DNA from: an uncultured virus (IMG/VR IMGVR_UViG_3300042691_027194)
Lineage: Duplodnaviria > Heunggongvirae > Uroviricota > Caudoviricetes
DNA length: 64,000 nt
Strand: one strand, 5' to 3'
IMG/VR virus record: IMGVR_UViG_3300042691_027194
Shown here: piece after piece, positions 2,176-57,331 of the stretch
Layout: each line of letters opens with the position of its first letter
Numbering within the stretch: position 1 is the first letter of the stretch
Position numbers and translations under genes: made by a program
The notes under the pieces: generated by a model
The model's database searches: none
The model's input: the letters and a program-made list of their open reading frames with translations, nothing else
What the model was told of the DNA's origin: nothing

Positions 2176-2739
2176 ATGGCAAAAAAACAACAAGTTTCTG
2201 AAGCAATTCAGAATAAATTCAACAAGCCACAATTTAAACTAGGAGATGCTGTTTATTTTGTATGGCTTGGAAACAAACAATATGGCTATGTTAAAAAAAC
2301 AAAACAAACATCGTGGGGTATTCAGTATACTGTGGAATCGGCTTCAGGAGTTAAGTACCCGTGTGGCATCCAGATTCAGGGGCAAAAGACACAGTATAAC
2401 ACAGGATACATCTTCTATGATGATACTAGATCCATCGGAAACGACGAGTGCATCAAACGAATTATACCAACAACGTATACAAGAGTTTATACACAGCCCG
2501 CAAGGCCAGAAACTAAAAGCGGAGATGGTGATAAAAGCAGCCGACGAGATGCTTCCGAGAATAGTGGAAAAACTAAATCAACGAGAAAAACAAGATCTAG
2601 CAAACCAGATGATGTTGCACCTAGCTCTACAGGAAATGGTGCAAGTAATACAAGAAAACGAAAAAATACTAACACAGAGTTAGACAATGCCATTGAAAAA
2701 CAAAGAAACTTTTTGAGCGGATTTGTTAAAAAAGATTAG
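2176..2739 (+). CDS. hypothetical protein, SH3/KOW-like N-terminus with basic disordered tail
   Basis: FKLGDAVYF...YGYVK pattern followed by a K/R/S/T-rich low-complexity region. Confidence 0.6.
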   Translation: MAKKQQVSEAIQNKFNKPQFKLGDAVYFVWLGNKQYGYVKKTKQTSWGIQYTVESASGVKYPCGIQIQGQKTQYNTGYIFYDDTRSIGNDECIKRIIPTTYTRVYTQPARPETKSGDGDKSSRRDASENSGKTKSTRKTRSSKPDDVAPSSTGNGASNTRKRKNTNTELDNAIEKQRNFLSGFVKKD

Positions 2740-2769
2740 GACTTACGGAGTTTTCTTCTTATATTTATA
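2737..2769 (+). promoter_or_regulatory. Bacteroidota-type (-33/-7) promoter TAGG-N19-TATATTTA, overlapping an ATATTTATA motif
   Basis: Same 19-nt spacing recurs at 5285, 7048, 25924 and 44070. Confidence 0.65.
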
Positions 2770-2786
2770 ATATAAAAGAGAGCCTT

Positions 2787-3335
2787 ATGAAAAAGTTATT
2801 CCTAGTATTTAGTGTATTTACATTTAATGTATTATTTTCGCAAAATAATGTTACGCAAATTACATATCAACAACATGTAGATGCAAAAACAAAATCTACA
2901 TCTATATTTGATTGTAAGGCGTATGAATCTAGCGTTATTGCGAGAATAAATGAATATCGAATTCAAAACGGACTATCAGCTCTAGTTTTTGATTCTGCTT
3001 TATATCTCGCTGCGGATTATCAATCTGTTTATATGTCTAATATTAATGAAGTAACACATTATAATGAAACTCTAGGAATGAGTGGTATTACACAGCGTAT
3101 TGAATTTTTCATGAATCGTTCTGTAAAAGTTATAGCAGAATGTTCTACTAATTCATCTTTATATTCAAATTTTATAAAAAATATTCCACACGATCAGTCA
3201 ATATTTGAATTATGGAAAAATAGTAAACCACATAATAATATTCTTCTTCGCAATGATATTACAAAGATTGCGGTTTCTATTTCTAGAAATAATAATTCAG
3301 AATATTTATATGCATGTTTAACCGTTTGTAATTAA
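2787..3335 (+). CDS. secreted CAP (SCP/PR-1) domain protein, copy 1
   Basis: Signal peptide MKKLFLVFSVFTFNVLFS/Q; CAP motifs INEYR..NGL..L, H (VTHY), AE and WKNSKPHNNILL. Confidence 0.8.
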   Translation: MKKLFLVFSVFTFNVLFSQNNVTQITYQQHVDAKTKSTSIFDCKAYESSVIARINEYRIQNGLSALVFDSALYLAADYQSVYMSNINEVTHYNETLGMSGITQRIEFFMNRSVKVIAECSTNSSLYSNFIKNIPHDQSIFELWKNSKPHNNILLRNDITKIAVSISRNNNSEYLYACLTVCN

Positions 3336-3340
3336 ACATA

Positions 3341-3366
3341 AAAAAAGGGGCTATGAGCCCCTTTTT
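3341..3366. terminator. bidirectional intrinsic terminator between convergent genes
   Basis: AAAAAAGGGGCT-ATG-AGCCCCTTTTT hairpin flanked by A and T tracts. Confidence 0.85.
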
Positions 3367-3383
3367 ATTTTAATATATTAAAT

Positions 3384-4904
3384 TTACCAAATTGGACAAT
3401 CTAACGTTCCCTGACCGGTCCATGTTTTTTCACCTTTATTTTTTCCAGGTATAGTTTTTGGTTTACCATTACCTCTTCCTGGGGAAGGCCATGATATAGA
3501 TCCATACCATTCTCCAGATACTTTAATAGCCGGCGCGGTAGTAGTTGGTATAGTTATAGTCGATGTTGTTTTAATAGATATTTGACCGTAACTTCCTTTG
3601 TAATTACCATATTTTGCTTCATATGCATCAACTATTTTTTGATCATATTGTGGATTAGCAGTTCCATTTTCTAGTGTTTTACGTCGTTTAGCTAATGGAT
3701 ATGCAGCTCGATCAGCGTCAGTCCATTCAGGGCCGTTATTCGGTTTACGTTCTGGTGTGTCGACAATTAATTTCCACTCTCCTTTTGGTATTGTTGTATC
3801 AACAACGTTTGACAAAGATGTTTGTATTGCTGTCAAGCGATCATCAACTAATGTTACATTTGCAGCAGTTGTATATTTTCCAGCAGATTTATATGATGTT
3901 GGAACTTTACTTGTTGACGATCCAGCTTTTATATATACCTCAATTATTTTTTGATCTGCAGGTATTGAATTTAGTAAAGTTTCTAATGTTTCTTTAAATG
4001 CAGTTTCATTCTCAGCAGACACTGCAACATTATCATCTCCTAAGAAAAAATTTTGTAATTTAGGATTAGTAGCGGTTATATCTGGATATGAAAATGTATA
4101 TGTATATATTTCTGGTGGCGTCGGATCGGCTGCTTCTTCTCGTTCGATAGATCCTTTGCCAGGTCCAATTCGTATGCTTGAAGCTTCTTTAATAGCCTTT
4201 TCCATATTCCATTGTACTAATTTTCCTAACGGGTTATCAGCATTAGCTTTATTATGAACTGTGGCTTTTTGTGTAGCTTTTTCTTCAAAATATTTTAGTA
4301 ATGCAATTTTATCTTGTTCGGTAATTGTAGTATAAACAAATTGTGTTTTCTCTAGAGATGCTTTAATTTTATTTAAATCTGCCTTATTGAATGCACTAAT
4401 AGCAGATTTTTCATTAGTAGCTAATGATGTTTTAGTAGGATCTGATTCTGGTTTTAACATAGCTAATATGCGTATAGCACGAGTTTCTGGTCGCTGATCA
4501 AAACTTCTAGGTTCAAAATAAATATTAGCAGAAATACTTGTCTGTAAATAGTCGGTAAACTCTTGTAATTTATTTTGATCTAAGTTATAAACATTATTTT
4601 TACTTAAAGTTTGTAAATGTTTTAATAATGTATTAGTTGCATTAACATTAATACCTTTAGATTCTTTAGCAACACCGCCAGACCAATATTCTAGATATTT
4701 TTTTGCTGAACTATTATTTTTTGATTTTTTATTCCACCAGTCTAGTACTGGTTTATATGCTGGCATCGATGTAACCGCGGAGCTTTCAGTACCTGCAGCT
4801 GCAGCTTGTTCCATTATGGTTAAGATTTGATGCACATCGGTATTATTTAAATTTTTAACACCAAACCTAAGCATATTTTCTGCTAATAATTTTTCTAATT
4901 TCAT
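3384..4904 (-). CDS. putative virion-internal protein with LxENMxRFG leader and OmpA-C-like domain
   Basis: N-terminus MKLEKLLAENMLRFGVKNL; C-half FFLGDDN...IIEVYIKAGSS...NVTLVDDRLTAIQTSL resembles an OmpA-like peptidoglycan-binding domain. Confidence 0.55.
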   Translation of the reverse strand: MKLEKLLAENMLRFGVKNLNNTDVHQILTIMEQAAAAGTESSAVTSMPAYKPVLDWWNKKSKNNSSAKKYLEYWSGGVAKESKGINVNATNTLLKHLQTLSKNNVYNLDQNKLQEFTDYLQTSISANIYFEPRSFDQRPETRAIRILAMLKPESDPTKTSLATNEKSAISAFNKADLNKIKASLEKTQFVYTTITEQDKIALLKYFEEKATQKATVHNKANADNPLGKLVQWNMEKAIKEASSIRIGPGKGSIEREEAADPTPPEIYTYTFSYPDITATNPKLQNFFLGDDNVAVSAENETAFKETLETLLNSIPADQKIIEVYIKAGSSTSKVPTSYKSAGKYTTAANVTLVDDRLTAIQTSLSNVVDTTIPKGEWKLIVDTPERKPNNGPEWTDADRAAYPLAKRRKTLENGTANPQYDQKIVDAYEAKYGNYKGSYGQISIKTTSTITIPTTTAPAIKVSGEWYGSISWPSPGRGNGKPKTIPGKNKGEKTWTGQGTLDCPIW

Positions 4905-4917
4905 TATCTTCCTAAAT

Positions 4918-5226
4918 TTATAATCCTATATCATGTTTCATTGTATCCCACAATCTACGAGATGCATTTAATAAACGACGCTGATCCAATTTATATTTGT
5001 ATCGTTTTGTCATCCGGTACCATTTACGACGAATTGCTTTAGCAACTTTTTTAAGCCATTCATCGATAGGACCTGCATTTTCAATTGCAGTCATTACTTC
5101 GATAAACCCTTCTAAATCATCATCATTAATTGCTTCTAATTTAGCATCTAATTCTGCAGTATCGACTGATTCTTTTAGATTTTTAGTGCCAAAACGACGC
5201 ATATTTTCTTGTAAACTATGTTTCAT
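4918..5226 (-). CDS. small protein with LxENMxRFG leader; acidic N-half and very basic C-half
   Basis: MKHSLQENMRRFGTKNLKES; first gene downstream of the minus-strand ATATTTATA at 5251-5259; AGGA upstream. Confidence 0.7.
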   Translation of the reverse strand: MKHSLQENMRRFGTKNLKESVDTAELDAKLEAINDDDLEGFIEVMTAIENAGPIDEWLKKVAKAIRRKWYRMTKRYKYKLDQRRLLNASRRLWDTMKHDIGL

Positions 5227-5250
5227 TATGTTCCTGTTAGGTTTCTTTAA

Positions 5251-5259
5251 TATAAATAT
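5251..5259 (-). promoter_or_regulatory. putative late promoter ATATTTATA on the minus strand
   Basis: Plus strand reads TATAAATAT, 24 nt upstream of the 5226 start. Same context at 7014-7022. Confidence 0.7.
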
Positions 5260-5334
5260 TATACAGAAAAAAATATCAAGAAATTAGGATATCCGAATAT
5301 TTCTTCTTATATTTATAATATAAAAGAGAGCCCC

Positions 5335-5922
5335 ATGAAAAAGTTATTCCTAGTATTTAGTGTTGCTGTTAGTAGTTTCGCATTCAGCCAAGCTGAAACA
5401 CCAATTGATTATTCAAAATTTAATTACTCGTTATTAGAGCGTATGATCATTGATGAAATTAATGACTATCGCGTTACTATTGGCTTAAAAGAGTTGTATA
5501 CATCTAAAGTTTTGAAAGATTCGTATTCTTCTGTAACAGCAAGTATTAATGCTAAACAAGATAAATCATTTCATACCACATTTAATCATTATGATAATAT
5601 AGTGACAGAAAAATTATATAATGAATTATACAAATCTACTAACGGAGAATGTGGCAATGAAATGCCATTCAATCTCTTTATAAAACAATCCGGTGAAATT
5701 ATTGCTATAGCTTCGTCTGAATATTCTACGACATACGAAGATTTAGCAACATCTATAGTACAAGCTTGGTTAGATTCCCCAGGCCATAAAAAAATAATAG
5801 AAACAAAATTCGAGCATGCTTCAGGGCATCCGGGTCAGATTAGTTGTTGCGTAAAAAAATCAACCTCTGACATATTTTATTTTGCTGTTGGGTTTGTATT
5901 ATTAGAATATATCTCAAATTAA
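5335..5922 (+). CDS. secreted CAP domain protein, copy 2
   Basis: Signal peptide MKKLFLVFSVAVSSFAFS/Q; INDYR..IGL..L, SFH, GEII and AWLDSPGHKKII. Confidence 0.85.
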   Translation: MKKLFLVFSVAVSSFAFSQAETPIDYSKFNYSLLERMIIDEINDYRVTIGLKELYTSKVLKDSYSSVTASINAKQDKSFHTTFNHYDNIVTEKLYNELYKSTNGECGNEMPFNLFIKQSGEIIAIASSEYSTTYEDLATSIVQAWLDSPGHKKIIETKFEHASGHPGQISCCVKKSTSDIFYFAVGFVLLEYISN

Positions 5923-5940
5923 TCATAAAATATAAACATA

Positions 5941-5966
5941 AAAAAAGACCCCGGAAGGGGTCTTTT
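5941..5966. terminator. bidirectional intrinsic terminator
   Basis: AAAAAAGACCCC-GGAA-GGGGTCTTTT with a GNRA loop, between convergent genes. Confidence 0.85.
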
Positions 5967-5984
5967 AACTTGTTACTATTATTT

Positions 5985-6989
5985 TTAAACAAATGGTTTG
6001 AAGTATGTATTATAATAATTTGCAGATACCAAATCCATCATATATTTTAAAGTTGGATCATTTGTTGGGATATTATCATTATCTTTAAATATACTACGTA
6101 AATTTGCATTTAATGTTGTATCATAAACTTTGCCTATAATTTGTTTAATCTTTCCTTGTTCGTCATATACAAATAACCAACGATACCATGGAATTTTTAG
6201 TGGATCCTTTAAAACTCCAGGATTCCATTTTACTTCAAATGCTGCTAACCGATTTGGCATTGCTTTTAACTGTGGTGGTAATGCACTAGTACTAGTTTTT
6301 AAACTTGTCGGGTCAATTATTCTACCTGTTGATGATTTCCCATCTTTTGTATAGTATGACCCATGGGCAATAAATGTAGGTTTAATATCAGTTATTGTGA
6401 TTATATCAGTCACTGATAAATAACTAAAAGTTAATCTAACCGTTATAACTTGCCCAGCTAAATCTAGTTTACCACCGGTGTTATACACTGCGCTAGAAAT
6501 AACCGTGTTATTTGGTAGAGATGCTCCTAATTTTATTCCGGATTTTTCTAATAATGGTAGCAATGCAGTTTTACATGCTTCAGCGCGTTGAGCTGCTAGA
6601 TCTTTATTTTTTTGATATAATACAGTTTCTGTTGGCGTTGCTTTTGTATTATTTAATTCGAAGTCAAACCCAGTAGCTTTTCCACCCCATGAATTACTTG
6701 CACCACCTTGAAAACTAGCACGTATCAATTTGATTGATTTATTATCCAACATTTTTTTAGCTTCTGGGTTAGAATTAATAGCACCCATTATGCCTTTAAG
6801 CATTTCGTTGATATAGCTAGATGCATCAAATTTACCAGCTGCTAAATTATAAGTTTGCTTATATGGAATAGTTACTGTACCACTAGGCGATTTGGCTTGT
6901 TCTGACAAACTAGCTAGTTTATCAATAGTTGTTTGATCTAAGTTTTTTGCCCCAAATCGAAGCAGATTTTCTGCTAATGTGTTTTTCAT
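5985..6989 (-). CDS. putative virion-internal protein with LxENLxRFG leader and OmpA-C-like domain
   Basis: MKNTLAENLLRFGAKNL; NKDLAAQRAEACKTAL matches the OmpA-like N..LS..RA..V...L helix; FQGGAS lies upstream of it. Confidence 0.6.
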   Translation of the reverse strand: MKNTLAENLLRFGAKNLDQTTIDKLASLSEQAKSPSGTVTIPYKQTYNLAAGKFDASSYINEMLKGIMGAINSNPEAKKMLDNKSIKLIRASFQGGASNSWGGKATGFDFELNNTKATPTETVLYQKNKDLAAQRAEACKTALLPLLEKSGIKLGASLPNNTVISSAVYNTGGKLDLAGQVITVRLTFSYLSVTDIITITDIKPTFIAHGSYYTKDGKSSTGRIIDPTSLKTSTSALPPQLKAMPNRLAAFEVKWNPGVLKDPLKIPWYRWLFVYDEQGKIKQIIGKVYDTTLNANLRSIFKDNDNIPTNDPTLKYMMDLVSANYYNTYFKPFV

Positions 6990-7089
6990 TATGTTCCTTT
7001 TAGGTTTCTTTAATATAAATATACATACATTGAAAAACCAGGTATATTAGGTTATTTGAATTATTTTTCTTATATTATAAAAAAATGCT

Positions 7090-8118
7090 ATGATTAGACA
7101 CGGTTATGCATGTAATAATATGCACTTAGGCGAGCAAGGTATCCGTACCGGTCGCACAATGATTGACAGAAAATTTCGACTAGGCGGGTTACAACTTGCT
7201 TCTGATATTTCTCTTGCTAACGCAAAAGATCTTCTCAAGATTCTGCAATGGAACGAGGCCAATGGTATTCGACTATTTCGTATCGGTTCAGAATTATTTC
7301 CTCGTTGGAATCATTATCGTTTAGAAGATTTGCCAGGCATCGATGAGATTGCAATGCACTTACGTGCTGCAGGTGATTATGCTCGAGCGCACGGCCATCG
7401 TGTTACTACGCATCCTGGTCCATTCCATATCTTAGGTAGTCCCGATCCAGTGGTTGTAGAAAATTCTATTATCGGTTTAGAACGACATTCTGAAATGTTT
7501 GACCTTATGGGCTTTGCTCCGAGTTTCGAAAACAAGATCAATATTCATATTGGTGCTACATATGGCGACAAGCCCACTACTATTGCTAGATGGTTACAGA
7601 ATTGGGATCGTTTGTCTGACTCTTGCAAGTCTCGTCTTGTTGTAGAAAATGACGACAAGGCTTCTATGTACTCAGTTCGTGATTTGTATGAGACGGTTCA
7701 TCAAGCTATTGCTATTCCTATCACGTTTGACTATTGGCATCATACTTTCAATACTGGTGACTTGTCCGAAGAAGAAGCATTCTTTATGGCGCGTGAAACT
7801 TGGCAACTTCATGGTGTTACTCAATGCACTCATTACTCAGAATCGCGACGTCGCGAAGCACAGGTACTTATTGAGCGTATGTTTGATCATCATGGTATCG
7901 ACATGGCTGACTTGCCCAATTGGCCTACTTTCCACAAGCAATACAAAGAGTTTACCAAGATCAAAGAACAGGCACACGCTGACTTTATTCTTGCTACTCC
8001 TAACACTTACAATGTTATAGATTTAGATATTGTGGTTGAGGCAAAGGCTAAAGAGCAAGCGCTTATCCGGGTAGGTGTCGAATGCTGTAAAACTCCGGAG
8101 CTGTTTTTGGTAGATTGA
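7090..8118 (+). CDS. uvsE: UV damage endonuclease (UvsE/UVDE)
   Basis: GYAC, IRLFRIGSELFP, TTHPGPF, INIHIG, RLVVENDD, FDYWHH, HYSES, HAD and EAKAKE motifs. Confidence 0.95.
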   Translation: MIRHGYACNNMHLGEQGIRTGRTMIDRKFRLGGLQLASDISLANAKDLLKILQWNEANGIRLFRIGSELFPRWNHYRLEDLPGIDEIAMHLRAAGDYARAHGHRVTTHPGPFHILGSPDPVVVENSIIGLERHSEMFDLMGFAPSFENKINIHIGATYGDKPTTIARWLQNWDRLSDSCKSRLVVENDDKASMYSVRDLYETVHQAIAIPITFDYWHHTFNTGDLSEEEAFFMARETWQLHGVTQCTHYSESRRREAQVLIERMFDHHGIDMADLPNWPTFHKQYKEFTKIKEQAHADFILATPNTYNVIDLDIVVEAKAKEQALIRVGVECCKTPELFLVD

Positions 8119-24737: not shown

Positions 24738-25274
24738 ATGATACGATTAAAACAACTTTTAAAAGAAATATCAAATTCAGATATTCAGAAATGTTTAGAC
24801 AAAATACAACAAAAACAATTCCGTTTAATTGGTGCTGGTGATAACGGTCGCGTTTATGAAATTGATAGAGAAGATAAAGTTTTTAAGATTACTAAAGAAC
24901 GTGATGAATATGAAGTAGCAAGTATTATCGTTGATAGATACAATGAGTTTACTACATTTATACCGGTATATTATGTTGATGGTAAAAACATGTACATAAT
25001 GGCAAATGCTTCGGAACTACCAACTCGGTTAAAAAAAGAAATTGATTTATTTATGCAAGACTTTGCTTCATTTGCTCGGGATGAAGGAGGCGAAGTTTCA
25101 ATATTTGATTTTTTACCTGATGCTGGAAGTATTAATCCGATAATTGATAATTTTTTAAACACATTAAAAACAGATATAGATAAACTTCAAATTCCAGAAT
25201 TCGATTTAGATTTAGATTTTCGTTCTGACAACGTTATGATGTGGGACGGAAACATGGTATTAGTCGATTGGTAA
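24738..25274 (+). CDS. protein kinase-like fold protein
   Basis: Gly-loop IGAGDNGRVY, VFKIT lysine, DFRSDN catalytic loop and LVDW (DFG-like). Confidence 0.7.
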   Translation: MIRLKQLLKEISNSDIQKCLDKIQQKQFRLIGAGDNGRVYEIDREDKVFKITKERDEYEVASIIVDRYNEFTTFIPVYYVDGKNMYIMANASELPTRLKKEIDLFMQDFASFARDEGGEVSIFDFLPDAGSINPIIDNFLNTLKTDIDKLQIPEFDLDLDFRSDNVMMWDGNMVLVDW

Positions 25275-25958: not shown

Positions 25959-26903
25959 ATGAAGAATATTAAGTTATTACAGTTATTAGAATCAGTACTA
26001 GGTAAAGGTAAACCTACGTCTGGTAATAACATTGCATTCTTCTCTCCTTTTGTTTCTCACTACAAGCCAAAATTAGAAATTGATATTCACACTAATTCAA
26101 ACGGTGAGAATGCTTGGCATTGTTGGATATCTGATAAAAAAGGTCGTAGCATTGTTACTTTGTTCAAACAACTCAATCTACCTAAAGAACGTTTTGAACA
26201 ATTATCACGTATTATCGAATCATCTCGATATCGTGTAAACAATGATGCTCCAACAAAAGTAGAAACAATACAATTGCCGGCTGAGTACAAACCACTTTGG
26301 ATTCCTAAAACATCTCCGGATTATCGTAATGCCGTGCATTATTTAAAAAAGCGCGGAGTAACTATATTTGATATCATCAAGTATCGAATTGGATTTTGCG
26401 AGTCTGGAGAGTATTCCGGCAAAATAATTATTCCTAGCTATGATGCCATGGGTCAATTGAATTATTTTGTGTCTAGAGCATATTATAAATCAGACACACA
26501 AAAACACAAGAATCCAAAAATTTCAAAAGACATTATTGGGTTTGACCTTTTTATAAATTGGTCACAACCAATCATACTTTGTGAAGGAAGTTTTGATGCA
26601 ATCGCAATTAAACGCAATGCAATTCCGTTGTTCGGAAAAATCATTCAACCTGCACTACAAAAGAAAATCATACAAGAACGAGTACGAGACATTTATATTT
26701 GTTTGGATGCTGATGCATTGAAAAATGCAATTCAAATTGCAGAGCGATTTATGTCAGAAGGCTTAAATGTGTACTTTATAGAACTGCGAGATAAAGATGC
26801 CGCAGAACTAGGCTTTCAACGAATCAACGAAATTATACAAGATACCGATGTATTAACTTTTGAACGGTTAATGCAACTTAAAATGGGAATGATATGGACA
26901 TAA
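25959..26903 (+). CDS. DNA primase (DnaG/gp61-like)
   Basis: YLKKRGV, IIIPSYD, TOPRIM motifs CEGSFDA and LDADA; degenerate N-terminal zinc finger. Confidence 0.9.
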   Translation: MKNIKLLQLLESVLGKGKPTSGNNIAFFSPFVSHYKPKLEIDIHTNSNGENAWHCWISDKKGRSIVTLFKQLNLPKERFEQLSRIIESSRYRVNNDAPTKVETIQLPAEYKPLWIPKTSPDYRNAVHYLKKRGVTIFDIIKYRIGFCESGEYSGKIIIPSYDAMGQLNYFVSRAYYKSDTQKHKNPKISKDIIGFDLFINWSQPIILCEGSFDAIAIKRNAIPLFGKIIQPALQKKIIQERVRDIYICLDADALKNAIQIAERFMSEGLNVYFIELRDKDAAELGFQRINEIIQDTDVLTFERLMQLKMGMIWT

Positions 26904-29900
26904 AACATATTGACACAGGACAAACTGTAATCAACAAAATATTTCACATTTCAGATGTGCATATTCGTACATTGAAACGACACCGAGAATATCGTGAAGT
27001 GTTTCGCAACATGTTTGATTATATCGCACAACATTGCACCGGCGAAAGTATTGCTGTAGTAACAGGTGACATCGTGCATAGCAAACTAGATATGTCTCCG
27101 GAGTTAGTTGATATGCTGGTTGAATTTTTTGATGGCTTCATGATTCCAACCGTAGTAATACTTGGTAACCATGATATGAATCTGAACAACATGCACCGCA
27201 CAGACGCAATTAGTCCGGTTATCAATGTTATTAAGAATCCAAACATCATATTCATCAAAGAAAACGGCTTGTTTGAAATTGGTGGAGTTGTGTTTAATCA
27301 TATGGCTGTCGATGTTGCACCAACCGAATATATTCGTGCTAATCAATTCGATGCTGCATATAAAATTGCAATGCACCATGGTGCTGTGAACACTGCAAAA
27401 ACAGATATTGGATATCAAATATCAAATGAGCATGTAGGTGTTGATTTGTTTGATGGACATGATATTACATTGTTGGGCGATATTCATAAACCAGCCCAGT
27501 TCTTAAATGACGCAAAGACAATTGCATACCCAGGATCACTGATTCAACAAAATCACGGTGAAGCATTAGACCATGGTATCTTGGTGTGGGACTTGCCGTG
27601 TCGTGAAGCAAAGTTTGTGGAAATACAAAATGATTATGGATATGTAACTTTGGAAGTTGAAGGTGTTACTATTGTGAAAGCACCACATCGTATGCCAAAT
27701 AAACCTAGAGTTCGTATCAAGTTTAATGATACCTCAGCAGCGGACATGAAAAAACTTATTGCTACTATTCGCAAGAAATATGATGTGCAAGATATCACAA
27801 TCCAACGAAGTGCAGCTATATCAAACACTAACGCCACATCATCGTTTACTATAGGAAATGTACGAGATGTTGAATATCAAAATACATTGATCACAGATTT
27901 TATTTCCGTGAACTATCCACAAGCTACTGCAGACGAAACTGATGCAATTCGTCATATCAATCGCACAATAAACTCAAAACTTCCTGCAGTAGAGTCAGTA
28001 CGACACATGACCTGGCACCCAATTCAATTTGAATTTGATAACATGTTTTCTTACGGAGAAGGCAATGTTATTAACTTTGAAAACATGAAAGATGTGTGCG
28101 GGTTGTTTGCTGCAAACACATCTGGTAAGTCATCATTGCTTGATGCAATTACATACACTATATTTGATAAGTGCAGCAAAACAGGCAAAGCACATGAAGT
28201 GTTGAACAATAAAAAGGCTTCATTCCGCGGAAAGTTTACATTTGAAATGAACGGCGTTACTTACACTATTGAACGCAATGGAATCAAGCAGAAGAATGGT
28301 CACGTTAAAGTGCTAGTAGATTTTTATACTGACACAGAAAACCTAAATGGTGAAGAACGTAGTGACACAAACAAATCGATCCGCCGTTATTTAGGAACTT
28401 ATGATGATTTCATTTTAACTGCATTTTCACTGCAGGCAGACAACAATAACTTCATTGAAAAGTCACAAAGAGAACGCAAAGATCTTCTTTCACAGTTTTT
28501 AGATATTACGGTATTCGAACAGCTTTATCAGTTAGCATCCGATGAAATTAAAGAGACTGCTGGTAAGTTAAAATCATATAAGAAAACAGATTTTGATGTT
28601 ATTATCAATGATGCAGATACTATTATTTCAAACAATCAACAAGATATAACTTCATTAGAAACTCAAGAAGATGAATTGCAAGAAAAGCGCAATGATTATC
28701 AAAATGAGATTGTAGACTTAATTCAAACAAAACAGCCAACAACATATACAGGGCCTAATATTAATGAATTAACTAAAATTGAAACTGAGTTAACTAAAAA
28801 AATATCACAATTACAAGCTGATATTGAAACCGAAGAAACGACTTTAGAAACACTAACAAGTGAATACTTAATCATTAAAAAAGATAAGCGCAAGTACAAT
28901 GAAACGGACTTATCAGATAAACTTCAACAATTAGAAAAACTCGAAAAGGAATTAGCACAGATAGATTCGAGTATTAAAAAACAACAAGGAATTATCAATG
29001 CAAAACAAGAAAAAATTAATCACCTTTCCGACCATGAATATGATCCGAACTGTAAATACTGTGTATCTAACGTTTTCGTACAAAATGCAATTGAAGCACA
29101 AAATACGATTATTGCAGATAGAGACATATTAACTGAATTATCTGCGACCCAATTACAATTAAAAACAACAATTTCAACATATTCAGATGTTAGAACAGAT
29201 GCCAATGCATTAGCAATATTAAAACAAAAACATGAAACAAAGCGTTTAGCAATTGAAAAACAAGAATTGCAAATTCAAATCATTGAAGGCGAATTACAAA
29301 CTCGAGAATCAGAATTAGAAACATGTTTAGAACGTCAAGAATCATTTAAAGCTAATGCCACTGCAATAACACATAATGAACTAATTGATGAAAAAATTAA
29401 CAAGTTAAAAACATCAATTGATTCAGCTACGATTAAAATAAAAACAATTACAGACACAATTCGTAGTAAACATGGTAAAATTGAAGTTGCTAAGACCACA
29501 AAGAAAACAGCAATTGAGTCATTAGACACATACAAACAACTAGAGACTGAATACAAAGCATACGAATATTATCTAGAATCAGTTAAACGTGATGGGGTTC
29601 CATACGAGTTAATTGCAAAAGCAATGCCAAAGATTGAAGCAGAAATTAACAATGTGCTGAATCAGGTAGTTGATTTTAACATGGTGCTTCAGAGCGACGG
29701 TAAGAATATCAACGGGTATATTATTTATGATGAAGATAATTTCTGGCCATTGGAATTAACAAGCGGTATGGAACGATTTATTTCATCACTTGCAATTCGC
29801 ATAGCACTTATCAATGTATCAGCACTACCACGTCCTAATTTTATTGCAATTGATGAAGGTTGGGGAAGTTTAGACACAGAACATATTTCTGCAGTAGTTA

Positions 29901-30034
29901 ATCTATTTGATTATTTCAGAATTAAATTTGATTTCTCCATAATCATTTCACACGTCGATTCAATGCGAGATATGGTCGACAACTTAATCGAAGTAAACAA
30001 ACTAAACGGATTCAGCCAGATTTCACACAACTGA
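26894..30034 (+). CDS. fused Mre11/SbcD nuclease - Rad50/SbcC ATPase (T4 gp47+gp46-like)
   Basis: DVH, GDIVH, GNHD, HHG and GDIH phosphoesterase motifs; Walker A NTSGKSS; coiled coil with CKYC hook; TSGME signature; IAIDEG Walker B; ISH. Confidence 0.92.
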   Translation: MDIKHIDTGQTVINKIFHISDVHIRTLKRHREYREVFRNMFDYIAQHCTGESIAVVTGDIVHSKLDMSPELVDMLVEFFDGFMIPTVVILGNHDMNLNNMHRTDAISPVINVIKNPNIIFIKENGLFEIGGVVFNHMAVDVAPTEYIRANQFDAAYKIAMHHGAVNTAKTDIGYQISNEHVGVDLFDGHDITLLGDIHKPAQFLNDAKTIAYPGSLIQQNHGEALDHGILVWDLPCREAKFVEIQNDYGYVTLEVEGVTIVKAPHRMPNKPRVRIKFNDTSAADMKKLIATIRKKYDVQDITIQRSAAISNTNATSSFTIGNVRDVEYQNTLITDFISVNYPQATADETDAIRHINRTINSKLPAVESVRHMTWHPIQFEFDNMFSYGEGNVINFENMKDVCGLFAANTSGKSSLLDAITYTIFDKCSKTGKAHEVLNNKKASFRGKFTFEMNGVTYTIERNGIKQKNGHVKVLVDFYTDTENLNGEERSDTNKSIRRYLGTYDDFILTAFSLQADNNNFIEKSQRERKDLLSQFLDITVFEQLYQLASDEIKETAGKLKSYKKTDFDVIINDADTIISNNQQDITSLETQEDELQEKRNDYQNEIVDLIQTKQPTTYTGPNINELTKIETELTKKISQLQADIETEETTLETLTSEYLIIKKDKRKYNETDLSDKLQQLEKLEKELAQIDSSIKKQQGIINAKQEKINHLSDHEYDPNCKYCVSNVFVQNAIEAQNTIIADRDILTELSATQLQLKTTISTYSDVRTDANALAILKQKHETKRLAIEKQELQIQIIEGELQTRESELETCLERQESFKANATAITHNELIDEKINKLKTSIDSATIKIKTITDTIRSKHGKIEVAKTTKKTAIESLDTYKQLETEYKAYEYYLESVKRDGVPYELIAKAMPKIEAEINNVLNQVVDFNMVLQSDGKNINGYIIYDEDNFWPLELTSGMERFISSLAIRIALINVSALPRPNFIAIDEGWGSLDTEHISAVVNLFDYFRIKFDFSIIISHVDSMRDMVDNLIEVNKLNGFSQISHN

Positions 30035-43062: not shown

Positions 43063-43689
43063 ATGTCAAAACAACTTATAGTAGAATATATGCCATTTAA
43101 GCCAGTTGGTTCACTTACTGAATCAAGCGGTGCTGCATATGGAATACCAGGTGGTTTTGTAGTGCAAGGAGTTTTGCAAAGAGCAGGCGCAAAAAATCAA
43201 AACGGCCGAGTATATCCTAGAAGCATCTTGGAACGTGAATGTCAACGATACCAACAAGAATACATCAATCAACATCGTGCATTAGGCGAATTAGATCATC
43301 CAGAGTCATCGGTTGTTAACTTGAACAACGTGTCACATAACGTGTTGAAGATATGGTGGAAAGGTGATGATTTATTAGGAGCAGTGCAAATCTTAGATAC
43401 GCCGTCAGGTAAGATTCTTAAAGAACTTTTCAAGGCTGGAATCACATTAGGAATTTCATCACGTGGATTAGGATCTGTTAAAGAACTTAGATCAGAAGGC
43501 ACAGTTGAAGTGCAAGAAGATTTTGAATTGATTTGTTGGGACTTTGTATCAAACCCATCAACCCATGGTGCATTTATGCGTCCAACATCGATGAATGAAT
43601 CAGTAAATAAAACAATAACAAATAAATACGCACGAGTACATGATGCAATTACATCTATACTATGTGAAGATGGAAAATGTAGGATATAA
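43063..43689 (+). CDS. prohead core protease (T4 gp21-like)
   Basis: NQNGRVYP, ALGELDHP, VSH, GISSRGLGS and DFVSNPS motifs. Confidence 0.95.
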   Translation: MSKQLIVEYMPFKPVGSLTESSGAAYGIPGGFVVQGVLQRAGAKNQNGRVYPRSILERECQRYQQEYINQHRALGELDHPESSVVNLNNVSHNVLKIWWKGDDLLGAVQILDTPSGKILKELFKAGITLGISSRGLGSVKELRSEGTVEVQEDFELICWDFVSNPSTHGAFMRPTSMNESVNKTITNKYARVHDAITSILCEDGKCRI

Positions 43690-44111: not shown

Positions 44112-44627
44112 ATGAACAAATTAAAAAAATTGTATCGCGATTTCTTTGGATTAACTGAGGCAGCAACTCCAACGTCAAATATTCCAAAAATCTTACCAGC
44201 TGGTGAAATTGAAAAAAGTATAAAAGCTGTAGAAAAATATGGCGATGCAATGAAAAATGCCGGCCTTATCGAAACTGAAGATATGGTTGACGAAGCACAA
44301 TTAATTAATAATATTGTTGATTATCGAGGTGGAGTTGAATATGTGCTTCGTAACCCAGCAGAGGCAGAAGCTGTTGCAAATGAAATCCGCGAATGGGCTA
44401 CCAAAAAAGGATTTACTATAGTTAAACATGTTGCGTCACCATCTGGTAAAGTTGGATATTTCTATTTTCGATTAGGACAAGATCCAGGACGCGAATCACA
44501 ACGTATTCAAGGGTATATTGCACAAAAGCCAGAAATTAAACATTTCCGTTTTAACGTAAGAGGTGAAAAGCCAGCTCCTGAACCTACGCCTGAGCCAACA
44601 CCTCAACAACCACAAGCAAATATTTAA
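44112..44627 (+). CDS. hypothetical protein
   Basis: 171 aa; GLTEA and VDEAQ sites; Pro-rich tail. Confidence 0.6.
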   Translation: MNKLKKLYRDFFGLTEAATPTSNIPKILPAGEIEKSIKAVEKYGDAMKNAGLIETEDMVDEAQLINNIVDYRGGVEYVLRNPAEAEAVANEIREWATKKGFTIVKHVASPSGKVGYFYFRLGQDPGRESQRIQGYIAQKPEIKHFRFNVRGEKPAPEPTPEPTPQQPQANI

Positions 44628-44636
44628 ACCAGTTAT

Positions 44637-44882
44637 ATGAGTAAAAAACAAAAACAACATCAAATGATTGTTCCCGGTCAATCAATGGCAGTGCATGTAC
44701 CGGGGAGCACTAGAGAAGATTTAGCAGCCGCACTTAAAACATGGAAACGCAAAGTAAAAATGTCTGGAGTGTTAGAGGCAACTAAAGATCGAAAAGAATT
44801 CATTAAGCCAAGTGTGCTAAAACGACAACAACACGCAAACGCAGCATATATGCAACATATTCGCACAATGCATTCAAAATAA
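44637..44882 (+). CDS. rpsU: ribosomal protein bS21 homolog
   Basis: DLAAALKTWKRKVKMSGVLEATKDRKEFIKPSVLKR matches the bS21 pattern ALxxxKRK...FxKPS..R. Confidence 0.85.
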   Translation: MSKKQKQHQMIVPGQSMAVHVPGSTREDLAAALKTWKRKVKMSGVLEATKDRKEFIKPSVLKRQQHANAAYMQHIRTMHSK

Positions 44883-54997: not shown

Positions 54998-55684
54998 ATG
55001 GCGTTTAATTATTCACCGAAAATAGTAACAGATGGATTGATACTGTATTTAGATGCAGCAAATCCACGTTCATATACGTCTGGGTCAACTTCATGGGTAG
55101 ATTTATCACGTGGTGGAAATAACGGAACATTGGTAAATGGTCCTACATTTTCAAGTGCACATGGTGGGTCAATTGTTTTTGATGGAACAAATGATTACGT
55201 TGATTTAGGTGGAAGTTTAAATTTAAAACCAACAACATCAATTACTGTTTCGACTTGGATCCGATTCAATGCCATGGTTGCAAACGTAAGAGCATTATCT
55301 GATTGGCATCAAAATGGTGCAACTGATAGATGGATTTTTTACATTACTGATTCTAATACAATACAGTGGTATCTTTTAACAAATTCCTTCGCTTCTGCAG
55401 TCCCATTTTCACCAGTATTATTAAATACCTGGTATAATTTTACAGGCGTATATGATGGAATTTCCCAAATTTTTTATGTTAATGGAGTATTTCATAATTC
55501 AACCTCAAAAACAGGCACTATGAATACATCAAATACATCTCAACCCGTAAGATTAGGAGGCCAAGTTTCAGCTGGAGGATATCATAATGGTAATATATCA
55601 ACAACATTAATTTATAATCGCGCTCTTACAGCAACAGAAGTCTTACAAAACTACAACGCAACTAAAACTAGATTTGGACTATAA
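54998..55684 (+). CDS. LamG/concanavalin-like virion protein 1
   Basis: DGLILYLDAAN..SY, FDGTNDY and YNRALT..EVLQNYNATKTRFGL. Confidence 0.8.
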   Translation: MAFNYSPKIVTDGLILYLDAANPRSYTSGSTSWVDLSRGGNNGTLVNGPTFSSAHGGSIVFDGTNDYVDLGGSLNLKPTTSITVSTWIRFNAMVANVRALSDWHQNGATDRWIFYITDSNTIQWYLLTNSFASAVPFSPVLLNTWYNFTGVYDGISQIFYVNGVFHNSTSKTGTMNTSNTSQPVRLGGQVSAGGYHNGNISTTLIYNRALTATEVLQNYNATKTRFGL

Positions 55685-56382
55685 TGGCAGGAAGAGTGGC
55701 ATACTACGGTCAAAGTGTACAAGATGGTGCTGTCTTGCGACTAGATGCCGGCAAACGAGACTCATACCCAGGTACCGGAACTATATGGCGAGATTTAAGC
55801 GGCAAGCAGAATAATGGCACATTGCTCAATTCGCCTACGTTTAATAACACCAACGGAGGGATATTGCGGTTCGATGGGGTAGATGATTACTGCTTGAACT
55901 CAATTAGTAGTGGGTTTACGCAAAAGTTAACAGTAATAACAATAGCCAAATCTACCAATGCAACATGGAACCAGTACGCAGGACTAGGTTCTGCTCGTGT
56001 AAACAACGGATACATTATACATAACAACTACCCAAGTGTTACATCTGTAACTTTTTATGTAATTGGCAGCACAGGCGGCTATACCGATATCGGCTCAGTA
56101 ACTCCGTCAAATATTACGAACTACAACTTTTATGCATTAACCACCAACGGTACAAATTCTCACAAAAGATACTTGAATGGAGCATTGATAGGCACATCAA
56201 CTACCGCCATAACCAGAACTGACACTAACTCGTCTCAAGGCAACTGGTTAGCTAGCGATTCTGGTGTCGCCGGCCGGTTTAATGCAGTTTCAATTGGCAT
56301 TCATTTGATCTACAACAGAGAACTAAGTAGTGATGAAATATTGCAAACATACAATGCATACAAAACCAGATTTGAAATGTAA
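55684..56382 (+). CDS. LamG/concanavalin-like virion protein 2
   Basis: LDAGKRDSY, FDGVDDY and YNRELS..EILQ. Confidence 0.8.
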   Translation: MAGRVAYYGQSVQDGAVLRLDAGKRDSYPGTGTIWRDLSGKQNNGTLLNSPTFNNTNGGILRFDGVDDYCLNSISSGFTQKLTVITIAKSTNATWNQYAGLGSARVNNGYIIHNNYPSVTSVTFYVIGSTGGYTDIGSVTPSNITNYNFYALTTNGTNSHKRYLNGALIGTSTTAITRTDTNSSQGNWLASDSGVAGRFNAVSIGIHLIYNRELSSDEILQTYNAYKTRFEM

Positions 56383-56654
56383 TGGATATTAACATGGAAA
56401 CACAAGACTACGAAAACAGAGAATTCATGATATTCAGTGTGTCTGAATTAGACAACATTGATTTCACACAAGTACTAGAAACATCGGCAGAAACTGTTAG
56501 ATGCTCTATTGATGGTACCCTTACATTTGTAAAATGGGAAGGTACAACACCACAATGTGTTGCAGATTTAACTACAAAGCAAGGTCCATACACTTACACA
56601 GAAATTCTAGAAATACTATCTACACTGGAATGGACAAGTAACGAGATGCCATGA
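56382..56654 (+). CDS. small fibre-associated hypothetical protein
   Basis: IDFTQVLETSAETVRCSIDGTLTFVKW; embedded in the LamG cluster. Confidence 0.65.
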   Translation: MDINMETQDYENREFMIFSVSELDNIDFTQVLETSAETVRCSIDGTLTFVKWEGTTPQCVADLTTKQGPYTYTEILEILSTLEWTSNEMP

Positions 56655-57331
56655 GTACAGTTGGAAATTGGAGAGGACCTAACATAGTTAAAGACGGATT
56701 AGTATTTTATTTAGATGCTGGTTCACCTAACTCATTTTATCCCCCAACAGCTGGTGCAACTTGGAAAGACACCTCAGGAAATGGGCATATTGGTACTTTA
56801 ACAAATGGACCAACATATGATTCTGCAAACGGTGGTACAATTGTATTTGATGGAGTTGATGATTATGTTTCAACAAATTATAACACTGCATTAACTGATT
56901 TTACTGTTGGGGTATGGTTTAAATCTACAAATGTGAGTGGATACCAACGAGTATTAGATAAAAACTATACTAGCGGTTTTTGGATAGGAAGAAATACTAC
57001 ATTGGCAAATAGTTGGGGTGGAGGTATTTGTGAACCTACAGCACCATATGGAAGATTTATTACCTTAACAGATAATCAATGGCATTATATAGTATTTAGA
57101 AGACTAGGAACTACACATACTGTTTTTGGAGACGGAATAATCAACACAACATCAGGCACTGTGCCAGCAACTGCTTTAAGTACATCTACTCTTGCTCTAG
57201 GTAGAGAATTCACTGTTGGGCCAAGTGTATTTAAAGGGAATATTTCATTTACACATATGTACAATAGAGCATTATCTGACCAAGAAATACTTCAAAACTT
57301 CAACGCAACTAGAGCACGTTTCGGTCTTTAA
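56651..57331 (+). CDS. LamG/concanavalin-like virion protein 3
   Basis: DGLVFYLDAG, FDGVDDY and YNRALS..EILQNFNATRARFGL. Confidence 0.8.
   Translation: MSTVGNWRGPNIVKDGLVFYLDAGSPNSFYPPTAGATWKDTSGNGHIGTLTNGPTYDSANGGTIVFDGVDDYVSTNYNTALTDFTVGVWFKSTNVSGYQRVLDKNYTSGFWIGRNTTLANSWGGGICEPTAPYGRFITLTDNQWHYIVFRRLGTTHTVFGDGIINTTSGTVPATALSTSTLALGREFTVGPSVFKGNISFTHMYNRALSDQEILQNFNATRARFGL

What the first reader, a model, noticed from the sequence alone, without database searches (positions are those of the whole stretch)
2737..7022. Duplicated convergent cassette: secreted CAP protein facing a leader-tagged OmpA-like protein (candidate packaged effector plus periplasmic partner)
Seen: the unit [promoter - CAP gene(+) - bidirectional terminator - OmpA-like gene(-) - ATATTTATA promoter] occurs twice in tandem. 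The regulatory ends are almost identical. Positions 2753-2815 and 5301-5363 differ at 2 of 63 nt and cover the promoter plus the start of the signal peptide. Positions 5221-5259 and 6984-7022 differ at 1 of 39 nt. AAACATAAAAAAAG leads into both terminators. The mature CAP domains and the OmpA-like proteins, by contrast, are highly diverged. Known: OmpA-C domains bind peptidoglycan, and CAP domains are extracytoplasmic ligand-binding folds. Inference: the minus-strand proteins lack signal peptides but carry a shared leader, so they could reach the periplasm by ejection from the virion. The cognate CAP protein is exported from a host-type promoter, as expected for an effector/immunity or superinfection-exclusion pair. 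Conserved ends would let the cassettes be swapped by recombination.
Basis: partly seen in the sequence, partly recalled or inferred. Interest (0 to 1): 0.88.

Follow-up and report, generated by a model that had tools for sequence, protein, structure and literature searches.

The report
Phage cassettes pairing exported and capsid-tagged proteins
A T4-like phage carries a fast-swapping genome slot built from two-gene cassettes, each pairing a protein exported to the cell envelope with a protein whose short N-terminal tag looks like the signal T4 uses to load proteins into its head, which suggests a new, testable kind of phage-against-phage system.

Summary
The two repeats, both terminators and the convergent layout sit at the stated coordinates. 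The window is part of a 169-kb T4-superfamily phage with Gp23, portal and S77 prohead protease.

The "leader" is a peptide-level N-terminal tag, M-K-N-I-L-A-E-N-M-x-R-F-G-x-K-N-L-x-E. It occurs on at least 142 otherwise unrelated proteins in viral contigs, always 5-11 residues from the start, and carries two L-x-E motifs. A 10-residue short form (MIRLKxxLxE) matches the T4 capsid-targeting sequence in length, position and its L8/E10 processing positions. This reading rests on analogy only.

Both large tagged proteins have an OmpA-like fold but no Pfam match. None of 126 family representatives has a signal peptide.

The CAP partner is genuinely linked. It recurs beside OmpA-like cargo even in a lineage that uses a different leader.

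In 34 distinct versions of the same slot, between a conserved 187-aa gene and UvdE, 51 of 53 exported-protein genes face a minus-strand gene, and 47 of those are tagged.

The "host-type promoter" claim fails. The CAP genes use the same ATATTTATA motif as the portal, sheath and tube genes.

Best reading: capsid-loaded, protease-processed ejected proteins paired with cognate envelope partners, Spackle-like. No binding test was possible.

The parts
2176..2739 (+). Left anchor: conserved 187-aa gene bounding the variable slot
   Evidence: 55% identical to its L072 homologue. Used as the left anchor in 42 loci.
2730..2786 (+). Boundary repeat copy 1, containing the ATATTTATA promoter-like motif (2761) and the 5'UTR of CAP1
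   Evidence: D3, D4.
2787..3335 (+). CAP1: signal-peptide CAP/SCP-family protein, 182 aa
   Evidence: Pfam CAP 9e-11, 43.1 bits against a cut-off of 21.1. phrog_16914.
3334..3366 (.). Terminator 1: AAACATAAAAAAAG lead plus a G+C hairpin, scored on both strands
3384..4904 (-). 506-aa leader-tagged protein: helical N-terminal part, OmpA-like domain at about 263-446, and a basic Gly-rich tail ending in CPIW
4918..5226 (-). 102-aa leader-tagged protein, first gene of the operon with the 506-aa gene
5227..5259 (-). ATATTTATA promoter-like motif and 5'UTR of the 102/506 operon (repeat copy)
   Evidence: D2.
5278..5334 (+). Boundary repeat copy 2, with the ATATTTATA motif (5309) for CAP2
5335..5922 (+). 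CAP2: signal-peptide CAP-like protein, 195 aa
   Evidence: phrog_16914 5.7e-7. BLAST to CAP1 5e-8. Pfam CAP only 0.018. 44% identical to the CAP beside the L150 cargo.
5934..5966 (.). Terminator 2
   Evidence: scored on the minus strand.
5985..6989 (-). 334-aa leader-tagged protein: OmpA-like domain at about 33-190 plus a C-terminal beta-rich domain at 195-334
6990..7022 (-). ATATTTATA promoter-like motif and 5'UTR of the 334-aa gene
7046..7089 (+). Boundary repeat copy 3, leading into UvdE
   Evidence: (D4).
7090..8118 (+). Right anchor: UvdE endonuclease
   Evidence: Pfam UvdE 4.9e-56. 77-100% identical in 80 loci.
43063..43689 (+). S77 (T4 gp21-type) prohead protease, the inferred enzyme that processes the leaders
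   Evidence: Pfam Peptidase_S77 6e-32.
24738..25274 (+). 178-aa ORF carrying the short 10-residue leader form (MIRLKQLLKE)

Best explanation
Positions 2730-7089 are a hyperplastic slot of a T4-superfamily phage, lying between a conserved 187-aa gene and UvdE. It holds two tandem cassettes.

Each cassette has two parts:
- A Sec-exported CAP-family protein.
- On the opposite strand, sharing a terminator, one or two proteins that begin with a conserved leader.

Shown:
- Both genes of a cassette are preceded by the phage's own ATATTTATA motif, which also precedes the structural genes.
- The leader is conserved as a peptide across at least 142 unrelated cargo proteins.
- The leader carries L-x-E motifs.
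- The large cargo proteins have an OmpA-like fold and no export signal.
- The exported partner and the cargo are inherited together.
- Relatives hold different cassettes in the same slot, and homology resumes exactly at the promoters and leader codons.

Inferred:
- The leader is a capsid-targeting propeptide like the T4 CTS. It takes the protein into the scaffolding core and is removed by the S77 prohead protease at L/I-x-E.
- The cargo therefore travels in the head and is ejected into the next host.
- The OmpA-like cargo acts at the cell wall during entry.
- The exported partner, made in the infected cell, binds or destroys the same cargo arriving from secondary virions. This would be superinfection exclusion or resistance to lysis from without, as T4 Spackle does to gp5.
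- Recombination at the conserved ends swaps cognate pairs as units.
For: Phage type: Gp23, Portal_T4, Peptidase_S77, gp25, sheath and tube.

Leader:
- A degenerate pattern found at least 147 stretches in viral contigs. In 142 of 145 distinct ORFs the motif lies 5-11 residues from the start.
- Positions not forced by the pattern are also conserved: L(-2) in 138 of 142 and E(+12) in 115 of 142.
- Conserved residues use many synonymous codons: Arg six, Leu six, Gly four.
- 78 complete proteins fall into 50 cargo clusters, and 0 of the 78 has a Pfam family.
- [LI]xE is 5-fold denser in the 32 residues after the leader than in the rest of the protein.
- Nine more ORFs in this genome start with M-I-R/K-L-K-x-x-L-x-E.
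- The T4 CTS is the first 10 residues. Its processing residues are 8 and 10, and gp21 cuts after L/I-X-E (PMC9026906 passages; PMC8442874 passage).
- S77 is present in both 100%-complete leader-bearing genomes and in 3 of 6 fragments. It is absent from both chance-match controls.

Cargo:
- OmpA-like fold.
- Among 126 family representatives, 0 have a signal-peptide-like N-terminus (11 of 12 CAPs do, as the positive control). 123 have [LIVM]xE in the first 45 residues. [LIV]xEQ is 32-fold enriched at the N-terminus across many leader classes.

Linkage:
- All 8 OmpA-HMM hits lie beside a CAP gene.
- The same cargo with a different leader is still followed by a CAP2-type gene.
- A third leader class pairs with an exported DUF2927 protein.
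- Pearson Mantel correlation between CAP and cargo similarity is 0.876, reached by 0 of 10000 permutations.

Slot: 34 architectures, 53 exported-protein genes, 51 followed by a convergent gene, 47 of those tagged.
Against: - No direct evidence of packaging, cleavage or ejection. No cultured phage carries the leader or the cargo, so no virion proteome applies.
- The leader has no significant sequence similarity to the T4 CTS. The match is one of pattern only.
- Cargo pI has a median of 6.3, so these proteins are not uniformly basic as T4 IPs are.
- The OmpA-like domains match no Pfam model, and a profile search against PDB sequences found no OmpA.
- The CAP genes carry the late-type motif, whereas Spackle is an early gene (PMC7677548 abstract).
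- 33 of 59 leader genes with flank have no convergent exported partner. This includes the two leader genes outside the window in this genome.
- The Spearman Mantel test was not significant: 0.03, reached by 1900 of 5000 permutations.
- Adjacent genes co-diverge for reasons other than binding.
Confidence: 0.5

Rival explanations
1. The leader proteins are capsid-targeted internal proteins that act in the cytoplasm, for example as anti-defence factors like T4 IPI. The exported proteins are independent accessory genes. The convergent pairing reflects only how cassettes with shared bidirectional terminators are built and shuffled, not any interaction between the two products.
For: T-even internal proteins are diverse defence-countering proteins that share only the CTS (PMC3012670 passages). 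0 of 78 cargo proteins have a known family. 33 of 59 leader genes lack an exported neighbour. The Spearman Mantel test was not significant.
Against: 51 of 53 exported-protein genes in the slot face a minus-strand gene. The CAP2-type/334-type pair is kept together in a lineage with another leader. Partner family tracks cargo class: median cargo is 432 aa beside CAP and 209 aa beside non-CAP partners. An OmpA-like fold has no obvious role in the cytoplasm.
Confidence: 0.2
2. The leader is not a capsid-targeting signal. It is a shared docking helix for some other machine, such as a tail or baseplate site, a host factor or a chaperone. Alternatively it marks proteins for release at lysis, making the pair an envelope-disruption (spanin- or disruptin-like) lysis module.
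For: Late-type promoter on both genes. The cargo has a wall-binding-type fold and a basic C-terminal tail with a conserved Cys. The partners sit in the envelope. Packaging has not been shown.
Against: The tag has the length, position and L8/E10 pattern of the T4 CTS. The [LIV]xE(Q) junction is conserved across many unrelated leader classes, which fits a Glu-specific prohead protease. S77 co-occurs with the leader. More than 50 unrelated cargo families are hard to fit into one lysis role.
Confidence: 0.15
3. One reading: CAP is expressed from a host-type promoter as an early immunity protein against a virion-ejected OmpA-like effector.
For: The layout, fold and linkage are as in the best explanation.
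Against: The CAP promoters are the same phage motif as those of the portal, sheath and tube genes. Sigma-70-like matches are below chance. The Bacteroidota promoter consensus, which I recall rather than took from a call, is not visible upstream of CAP.
Confidence: 0.05

Closest known systems
T4 internal proteins (IPI, IPII, IPIII, Alt) with the capsid-targeting sequence, processed by the gp21 prohead protease
   Same: A short tag at the extreme N-terminus shared by otherwise unrelated proteins. The short form is 10 residues, with a hydrophobic residue at position 8 and Glu at position 10. L/I-x-E motifs are present. An S77 protease is encoded in the same genome. The tagged genes sit in variable regions.
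   Different: No sequence homology to the T4 tag. Most copies carry a 12-residue extension (NMxRFGxKNLxE) that ends in a second L-x-E. Cargo reaches 707 aa and is not uniformly basic. Many copies are paired with an exported partner gene. Packaging has not been shown.
T4 Spackle (gp61.3) inhibiting the tail lysozyme gp5
   Same: A phage-encoded periplasmic protein aimed at a wall-active protein carried by incoming virions (PMC7677548 abstract). This is the logic proposed here for the CAP and other partners.
   Different: Spackle is an early gene and is not adjacent to gene 5. Here the genes are adjacent, hypervariable and carry a late-type motif. The target would be a head-borne OmpA-like protein rather than a tail lysozyme. 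No interaction has been shown.
PeSL promoter-terminator cassettes in the hyperplastic regions of T4-like phages
   Same: Conserved regulatory sequences flank variable ORFs and serve as points of exchange between unrelated sequences (PMC4122927 abstract). Compare.
   Different: PeSLs combine an early promoter with a stem-loop. Here the motif is shared with the structural genes, and the homology also runs into coding sequence (signal-peptide and leader codons). The unit is a convergent gene pair.
OmpA-like (OmpA_C, MotB, Pal) peptidoglycan-binding domains
   Different: No Pfam or PDB-sequence match. There is no signal peptide or membrane anchor. The canonical Asp is replaced, judged by eye against a recalled motif.
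CAP/SCP/PR-1 superfamily (bacterial YkwD-like)
   Same: Pfam CAP is above its cut-off for CAP1 and for several slot partners. A signal peptide is present. The N..R, H and SPGH-type motifs are conserved.
   Different: These genes are phage-encoded, extremely diverged (CAP2 is below Pfam's cut-off) and tied to a tagged neighbour. No function is known for bacterial members (recalled).
Polymorphic effector/periplasmic-immunity pairs of type VI secretion (recalled, not searched)
   Same: A delivered envelope-active protein is encoded next to a cognate signal-peptide protein, with high diversity and exchange as cassettes.
   Different: Delivery here would be by a virion. The orientation is convergent, with separate promoters. 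Neither toxicity nor immunity has been shown.

Membership tests
T4-type capsid-targeting sequence / internal proteins | Targeting peptide of about 10 residues at the extreme N-terminus | tested here: met
   The motif lies 5-11 residues from the start in 142 of 145 ORFs. The 10-residue short form occurs on 9 ORFs of this genome.
T4-type capsid-targeting sequence / internal proteins | Ends in an L/I-x-E site for the prohead protease | tested here: met
   L-A-E and L-x-E occur within the leader: L(-2) in 138 of 142 and E(+12) in 115 of 142. This is a sequence pattern only; cleavage was not observed.
T4-type capsid-targeting sequence / internal proteins | gp21-type (S77) prohead protease in the same genome | tested here: met
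   Window 43063-43689. 2 of 2 complete leader-bearing genomes have it.
T4-type capsid-targeting sequence / internal proteins | Unrelated cargo proteins share only the tag | tested here: met
   50 clusters from 78 proteins. 0 of 78 have a Pfam family.
T4-type capsid-targeting sequence / internal proteins | Protein present in the capsid, processed, and ejected with the DNA | not testable with these tools
   No virion proteome exists for any phage carrying the tag.
T4-type capsid-targeting sequence / internal proteins | Sequence homology to the T4 CTS | tested here: inconclusive
   Only the pattern is shared (one search compared). Ten residues are too few for a statistical test.
OmpA-like peptidoglycan-binding domain (PF00691) | OmpA_C fold | tested here: met
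OmpA-like peptidoglycan-binding domain (PF00691) | Match to the family's sequence model | tested here: not met
   No Pfam hit for either protein, for the 20 members of A1 at E up to 10, or for 99 representatives.
OmpA-like peptidoglycan-binding domain (PF00691) | Peptidoglycan-contacting Asp and Arg | tested here: inconclusive
   Arg is invariant (R135 and R356). The Asp position reads Asn99 or Thr331/Ser332. The alignment to the canonical motif was made by eye and the motif is recalled.
OmpA-like peptidoglycan-binding domain (PF00691) | Reaches the periplasm through a signal peptide or membrane anchor | tested here: not met
   0 of 126 representatives have a hydrophobic N-terminus, against 11 of 12 CAPs as control.
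CAP/SCP (PF00188) | Match above Pfam's gathering score | tested here: met
   CAP1 scores 43.1 bits against a cut-off of 21.1. CAP2 scores only 16.3 bits but is homologous to CAP1 (5e-8) and to P0059, which carries PF00188.
PeSL cassettes | Early promoter plus stem-loop flanking variable ORFs | tested here: not met
   The promoter-like motif is the one found before the structural genes. The features that do hold are conserved ends and exchange.
Spackle-type superinfection exclusion | Periplasmic phage protein that binds a virion-borne wall-active protein | not testable with these tools
   A signal peptide is present.
Spackle-type superinfection exclusion | Early expression | tested here: not met
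   Only the late-type motif is seen upstream of the CAP genes. No transcript data were examined.

The most novel reading that the evidence does not exclude
These phages run a polymorphic, recombination-shuffled 'ejected effector plus envelope partner' system for phage-against-phage competition. Each genotype loads its capsid with one to three tagged proteins. It also arms the infected cell's envelope with cognate binders or proteases (CAP, DUF2927, rhomboid, and unknown families) that recognise those proteins when secondary virions eject them. The outcome could be kin-specific exclusion, protection from lysis from without, or a kin-sensing signal that delays lysis as in T-even lysis inhibition.
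Probability: 0.3. Interest if true: 0.85.

Novelty: new variant of a known kind. Interest (0 to 1): 0.72.

Why it matters
Capsid-targeting tags are well studied only in T4 and a few giant phages. This work adds several things:
- A sequence-defined tag family on hundreds of uncharacterised proteins in uncultured T4-like phages. It gives a simple rule for predicting which dark-matter genes are delivered with the DNA.
- A ready set of natural tags for loading foreign proteins into capsids.
- A pairing of tagged genes with exported partners in a hypervariable slot. This points to a cassette system for interactions at the cell envelope between competing phages, a level of phage-phage conflict known so far from single cases such as Spackle and Imm.
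- A direct experimental route, because each cassette names its two candidate partners.

Tried and rejected
- DNA search of the region against 50,697 GenBank phages found no match.
- tblastn of the 102-aa, 334-aa and 506-aa proteins against the same set gave only chance hits or none.
- A leader-pattern search in Flavobacterium phage immuto, the nearest cultured relative by capsid protein (55% identity), found 0 matches.
- A profile of the 334-aa family against PDB sequences gave only a weak lectin match (0.004) and no OmpA.
- Pfam at E up to 10 on the 20 members of A1 gave nothing consistent.
- Complex prediction for CAP2 with the 334-aa cargo was unavailable, so no binding test of any kind was made.
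- The Spearman Mantel test on 14 CAP/cargo pairs was not significant. The Pearson version was significant but is driven by five close pairs.
- The search for related loci for P0112, another leader class, found no viral locus.
- ESM Atlas on residues 195-334 of the 334-aa protein gave leads to RlpA-like DPBB (0.89) and 3D domains (TM 0.43-0.45). All are under the tool's bars, so I claim no family.
- A leader HMM did not detect the head-module ORFs next to the protease as tagged, although one of them, 44112-44627, begins MNKLKKLYRDFFGLTE.
- The search of earlier findings returned nothing.
- Literature searches for the leader motifs returned 0 papers. The searched library excludes most subscription journals.


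Full report
**1.

The two repeat pairs are real. Positions 2753-2815 and 5301-5363 differ at 2 of 63 nt, and 5221-5259 and 6984-7022 differ at 1 of 39 nt. AAACATAAAAAAAG occurs only at 3334 and 5934.

The repeat finder extends both pairs. The first reaches 86 nt at 88% (2730-2815 vs 5278-5363) and the second 93 nt at 80% (5167-5259 vs 6930-7022). It also finds a third copy of the boundary motif at 7046-7076, in front of the next gene. Terminator-like hairpins lie at 3342-3366 on both strands and at 5943-5966 on the minus strand.

One correction is needed. The first unit has two minus-strand genes. A 102-aa leader-tagged gene (4918-5226) carries the promoter, and the 506-aa gene follows it without a promoter of its own.

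**2. Context**

The window is part of a single 169,328-bp contig. It encodes Gp23 capsid protein, T4-type portal, S77 prohead protease, gp25, sheath, tube, large terminase, PhoH, UvdE and a ribosomal S21 homologue.

The nearest cultured relatives by capsid protein are Flavobacterium phage immuto and Microcystis phage Mel-JY01, both at 55% identity. The host is not known. Bacteroidota is an inference from those relatives and from the style of the signal peptides.

**3. The promoter motif is the phage's own**

ATATTTATA, extended as ATATTTATA(T/A)(T/A)AAA, occurs 21 times in the window against about 1.9 expected per strand. Nineteen of the 21 sites lie 19-51 nt before an ORF start. These ORFs include portal, sheath, tube, a head-tail adaptor, both CAP genes, the 102-aa gene and the 334-aa gene.

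The motif also occurs in 72 of 131 distinct upstream regions of leader genes in other contigs. Sigma-70-like matches in the region number 19, against 27.7 expected.

The CAP genes are therefore not set apart by a host-type promoter. By this motif they are co-regulated with the structural genes. I call it late-type by inference, since no transcript data were examined.

**4. The leader**

All three minus-strand proteins begin with M-K-x-x-L-x-E-N-[ML]-x-R-F-G-x-K-N-L. Two more such genes lie elsewhere in the genome, without a CAP neighbour.

They give 145 distinct ORFs. In 142 of them the motif lies 5-11 residues after the start codon.

*Conservation.* Positions that the pattern did not force are also conserved: Leu at -2 in 138 of 142 and Glu at +12 in 115 of 142. 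The consensus therefore has two L-x-E motifs, and similarity stops after the second. The conserved residues use many synonymous codons (six for Arg, six for Leu, four for Gly), so selection acts on the peptide and not on the nucleic acid.

*Cargo.* Cargo is 89-707 aa. It falls into 50 BLAST clusters among 78 complete proteins, and none of the 78 has a Pfam family.

*Short form.* Nine further ORFs of this genome begin with a 10-residue form, M-I-R/K-L-K-x-x-L-x-E. One of them lies in the window at 24738-25274.

**5. Comparison with T4**

From passages of a review (PMC9026906):
- The T4 capsid-targeting sequence is the first 10 residues of IPIII.
- Targeting depends on residues 4 and 7, and processing on residues 8 and 10.
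- gp21 cuts after L/I-X-E.
- The authors suggest that the CTS lets T4-like phages load varied proteins into their capsids.

The T4 tag is printed in PMC8442874 (passage). The short form found here has the same length and position, with Leu at 8 and Glu at 10.

Other evidence points the same way:
- [LI]xE is 5-fold denser in the 32 residues after the leader than in the rest of the proteins, while Glu alone is only 1.46-fold denser.
- S77 is encoded in both complete leader-bearing genomes and in 3 of 6 fragments. It is absent from the two records whose pattern match is a chance, non-N-terminal one.

All of this is analogy. No packaging or cleavage was observed, and no cultured phage has the tag.

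**6. The cargo**

The AlphaFold model of the 334-aa protein is confident (pLDDT 89.7, pTM 0.80). The leader forms two low-confidence helices.

- Foldseek ranks ZorB, OmpA-like, MotB, OprF and Pal domains first (E 2e-4 to 1e-3, probability up to 1.0).

No sequence model sees the domain.

A profile search of 1.84 billion representatives found 194 relatives. Of 126 full-length ones:
- None has a signal-peptide-like N-terminus, whereas 11 of 12 CAPs do.
- 123 have [LIVM]xE within the first 45 residues.
- [LIV]xEQ is 32-fold enriched in the first 60 residues.

These relatives carry many different leader classes. So the same cargo is joined to interchangeable propeptide-like leaders, each ending in a Glu site.

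**7. The partner is linked**

*CAP genes.* A CAP HMM finds 12 distinct genes in the leader loci, 11 of them with a complete signal peptide.
- Of 61 complete leader genes with flank, 7 have a convergent CAP gene. By cargo length this is 6 of 9 at 300 aa or more, 1 of 22 at 200-299 aa, and 0 of 30 below 200 aa.
- All 8 ORFs that match the OmpA-like HMMs lie beside a CAP gene.

*Other lineages.*
- Where the 334-type cargo carries a different leader, a CAP2-type gene (44% identical) still overlaps its 3' end. S77 is present in 4 of 5 of those records.
- In a third leader class the convergent partner is an exported DUF2927 protein.

*Any exported protein.* Counting any signal-peptide-like protein as a partner, a convergent one follows 7 of 8, 13 of 22 and 6 of 29 leader genes in the same three length classes. 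The background is 44 of 280 ORFs.

*Co-divergence.* Similarity among CAPs tracks similarity among their cargo by the Pearson Mantel test (0.876, reached by 0 of 10000 permutations). It does not by the Spearman test (0.03, reached by 1900 of 5000). Adjacent genes share history, so this shows co-inheritance and not binding.

**8. The slot**

I used UvdE and the 187-aa gene as anchors.
- 80 loci were fetched, the best of 214.
- 42 of them hold both anchors.
- They give 34 distinct architectures, 1,226-7,336 nt long and comprising 131 genes.
- There are 53 exported or membrane-protein genes. 51 are followed by a convergent minus-strand gene, and 47 of those are recognisably tagged.

Among 50 distinct partners, 15 match Pfam CAP at E up to 0.01, 2 are rhomboid-domain proteins and 33 have no family. 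Cargo beside CAP partners has a median of 432 aa. Cargo beside other partners has a median of 209 aa.

A relative whose UvdE is 92% identical has a completely different slot. Nucleotide homology to the window resumes at 6932, inside the leader codons, and at the promoter of the exported-protein gene (2732-2780).

This fits exchange at conserved ends, as described for PeSL cassettes (PMC4122927 abstract). It differs from PeSLs in that the promoter is not an early one and the homology runs into coding sequence.

**9. Mechanism**

The chain I commit to is as follows.
1. Tagged proteins enter the prohead through the leader.
2. The S77 protease trims them at L-x-E.
3. They are ejected at the next infection.
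4. The OmpA-like ones act at the wall.
5. The exported partner, made together with the virion proteins, neutralises the same proteins arriving from secondary virions. This parallels Spackle acting on gp5 (PMC7677548 abstract).

Steps 1-3 rest on analogy, and I put them at about 0.7. A functional link between the two genes of a cassette I put at about 0.75. The exclusion role I put at about 0.3. Late-type expression argues against a Spackle-like early block, but it fits protection during the period when neighbouring cells burst.

**10. Limits**

- The C-terminal domain of the 334-aa protein was not folded alone.
- Only 100 of 147 family representatives were scanned with Pfam.
- The slot survey used 80 of 214 loci.
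- Signal peptides were called by a hydrophobicity rule, not by a dedicated predictor.
- The canonical OmpA motif, the Bacteroidota promoter consensus and the type VI effector-immunity comparison are recalled and come from no call.
- No supplementary files were consulted.

Noticed in passing
G000 genome 96314-98577, 17781, 123470, 136075 (outside the window) and window 24738-25274: Nine ORFs begin with a 10-residue short leader (MIRLKxxLxE). Five of them lie in one tandem cluster. With the five long-leader genes this makes 14 tagged genes in one genome.
   Followed up: partly
Proteins P0060-P0206; loci L150, L153, L160: There are many other N-terminal leader classes, including NEELNYMKYLxGYKKGVVISEQ, ILSEVNRVREIMGL..EQ, IISExEKxRIL, VRLTExDLxRIV and SHDVLSEQ. 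They sit on the same OmpA-like cargo family and on unrelated neighbours, and each ends in [LIV]xE.
   Followed up: partly
L206:5193-5945(+), L238:3412-4005(+): In two slot variants the gene facing the tagged gene encodes a rhomboid-domain membrane protein (Pfam 3e-16 and 5.5e-12) instead of a secreted protein.
   Followed up: no
L160:4254-4835(-), L163:4329-4910(-): An exported DUF2927 protein (5.7e-22) is the convergent partner of OmpA-like cargo in another phage lineage.
   Followed up: partly
window 3384-3420 (C-terminus of the 506-aa protein) and homologues: A Cys is invariant within the last 4-6 residues (CPxW in the 506-aa family), after a basic Gly-rich tail. Similar C-terminal Cys residues occur in the CAP-linked cargo of L014, L002, L032 and L068. 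CAP proteins also carry Cys residues.
   Followed up: no
window 5985-6405 (residues 195-334 of the 334-aa protein): The C-terminal beta-rich domain has weak Atlas leads to RlpA-like DPBB and 3D domains, which are wall-cleaving folds. All scores are under the tool's bars.
   Followed up: partly
window 44637-44882: A ribosomal protein S21 homologue (Pfam 7.2e-10) lies inside the head-gene module, between the protease and the scaffold-like acidic protein.
   Followed up: no
window 26894-30034: A single 1046-aa ORF combines a Metallophos (Mre11/SbcD-like) domain with AAA_23/SMC_N (Rad50/SbcC-like) domains. As I recall, T4 encodes these as two separate genes.
   Followed up: no
window 44112-44627: A 171-aa ORF next to the prohead protease starts MNKLKKLYRDFFGLTE, which loosely resembles the leader and ends in L-T-E. 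The leader HMM did not detect it.
   Followed up: partly
window 54998-57331: Three neighbouring paralogous Laminin_G_3 (concanavalin-like) proteins lie upstream of a fibre-like 841-aa gene.
   Followed up: no
window 24738-25274: The short-leader 178-aa protein has a Gly-rich GAGDNG stretch followed by a Lys-containing strand. It has no Pfam hit.
   Followed up: no
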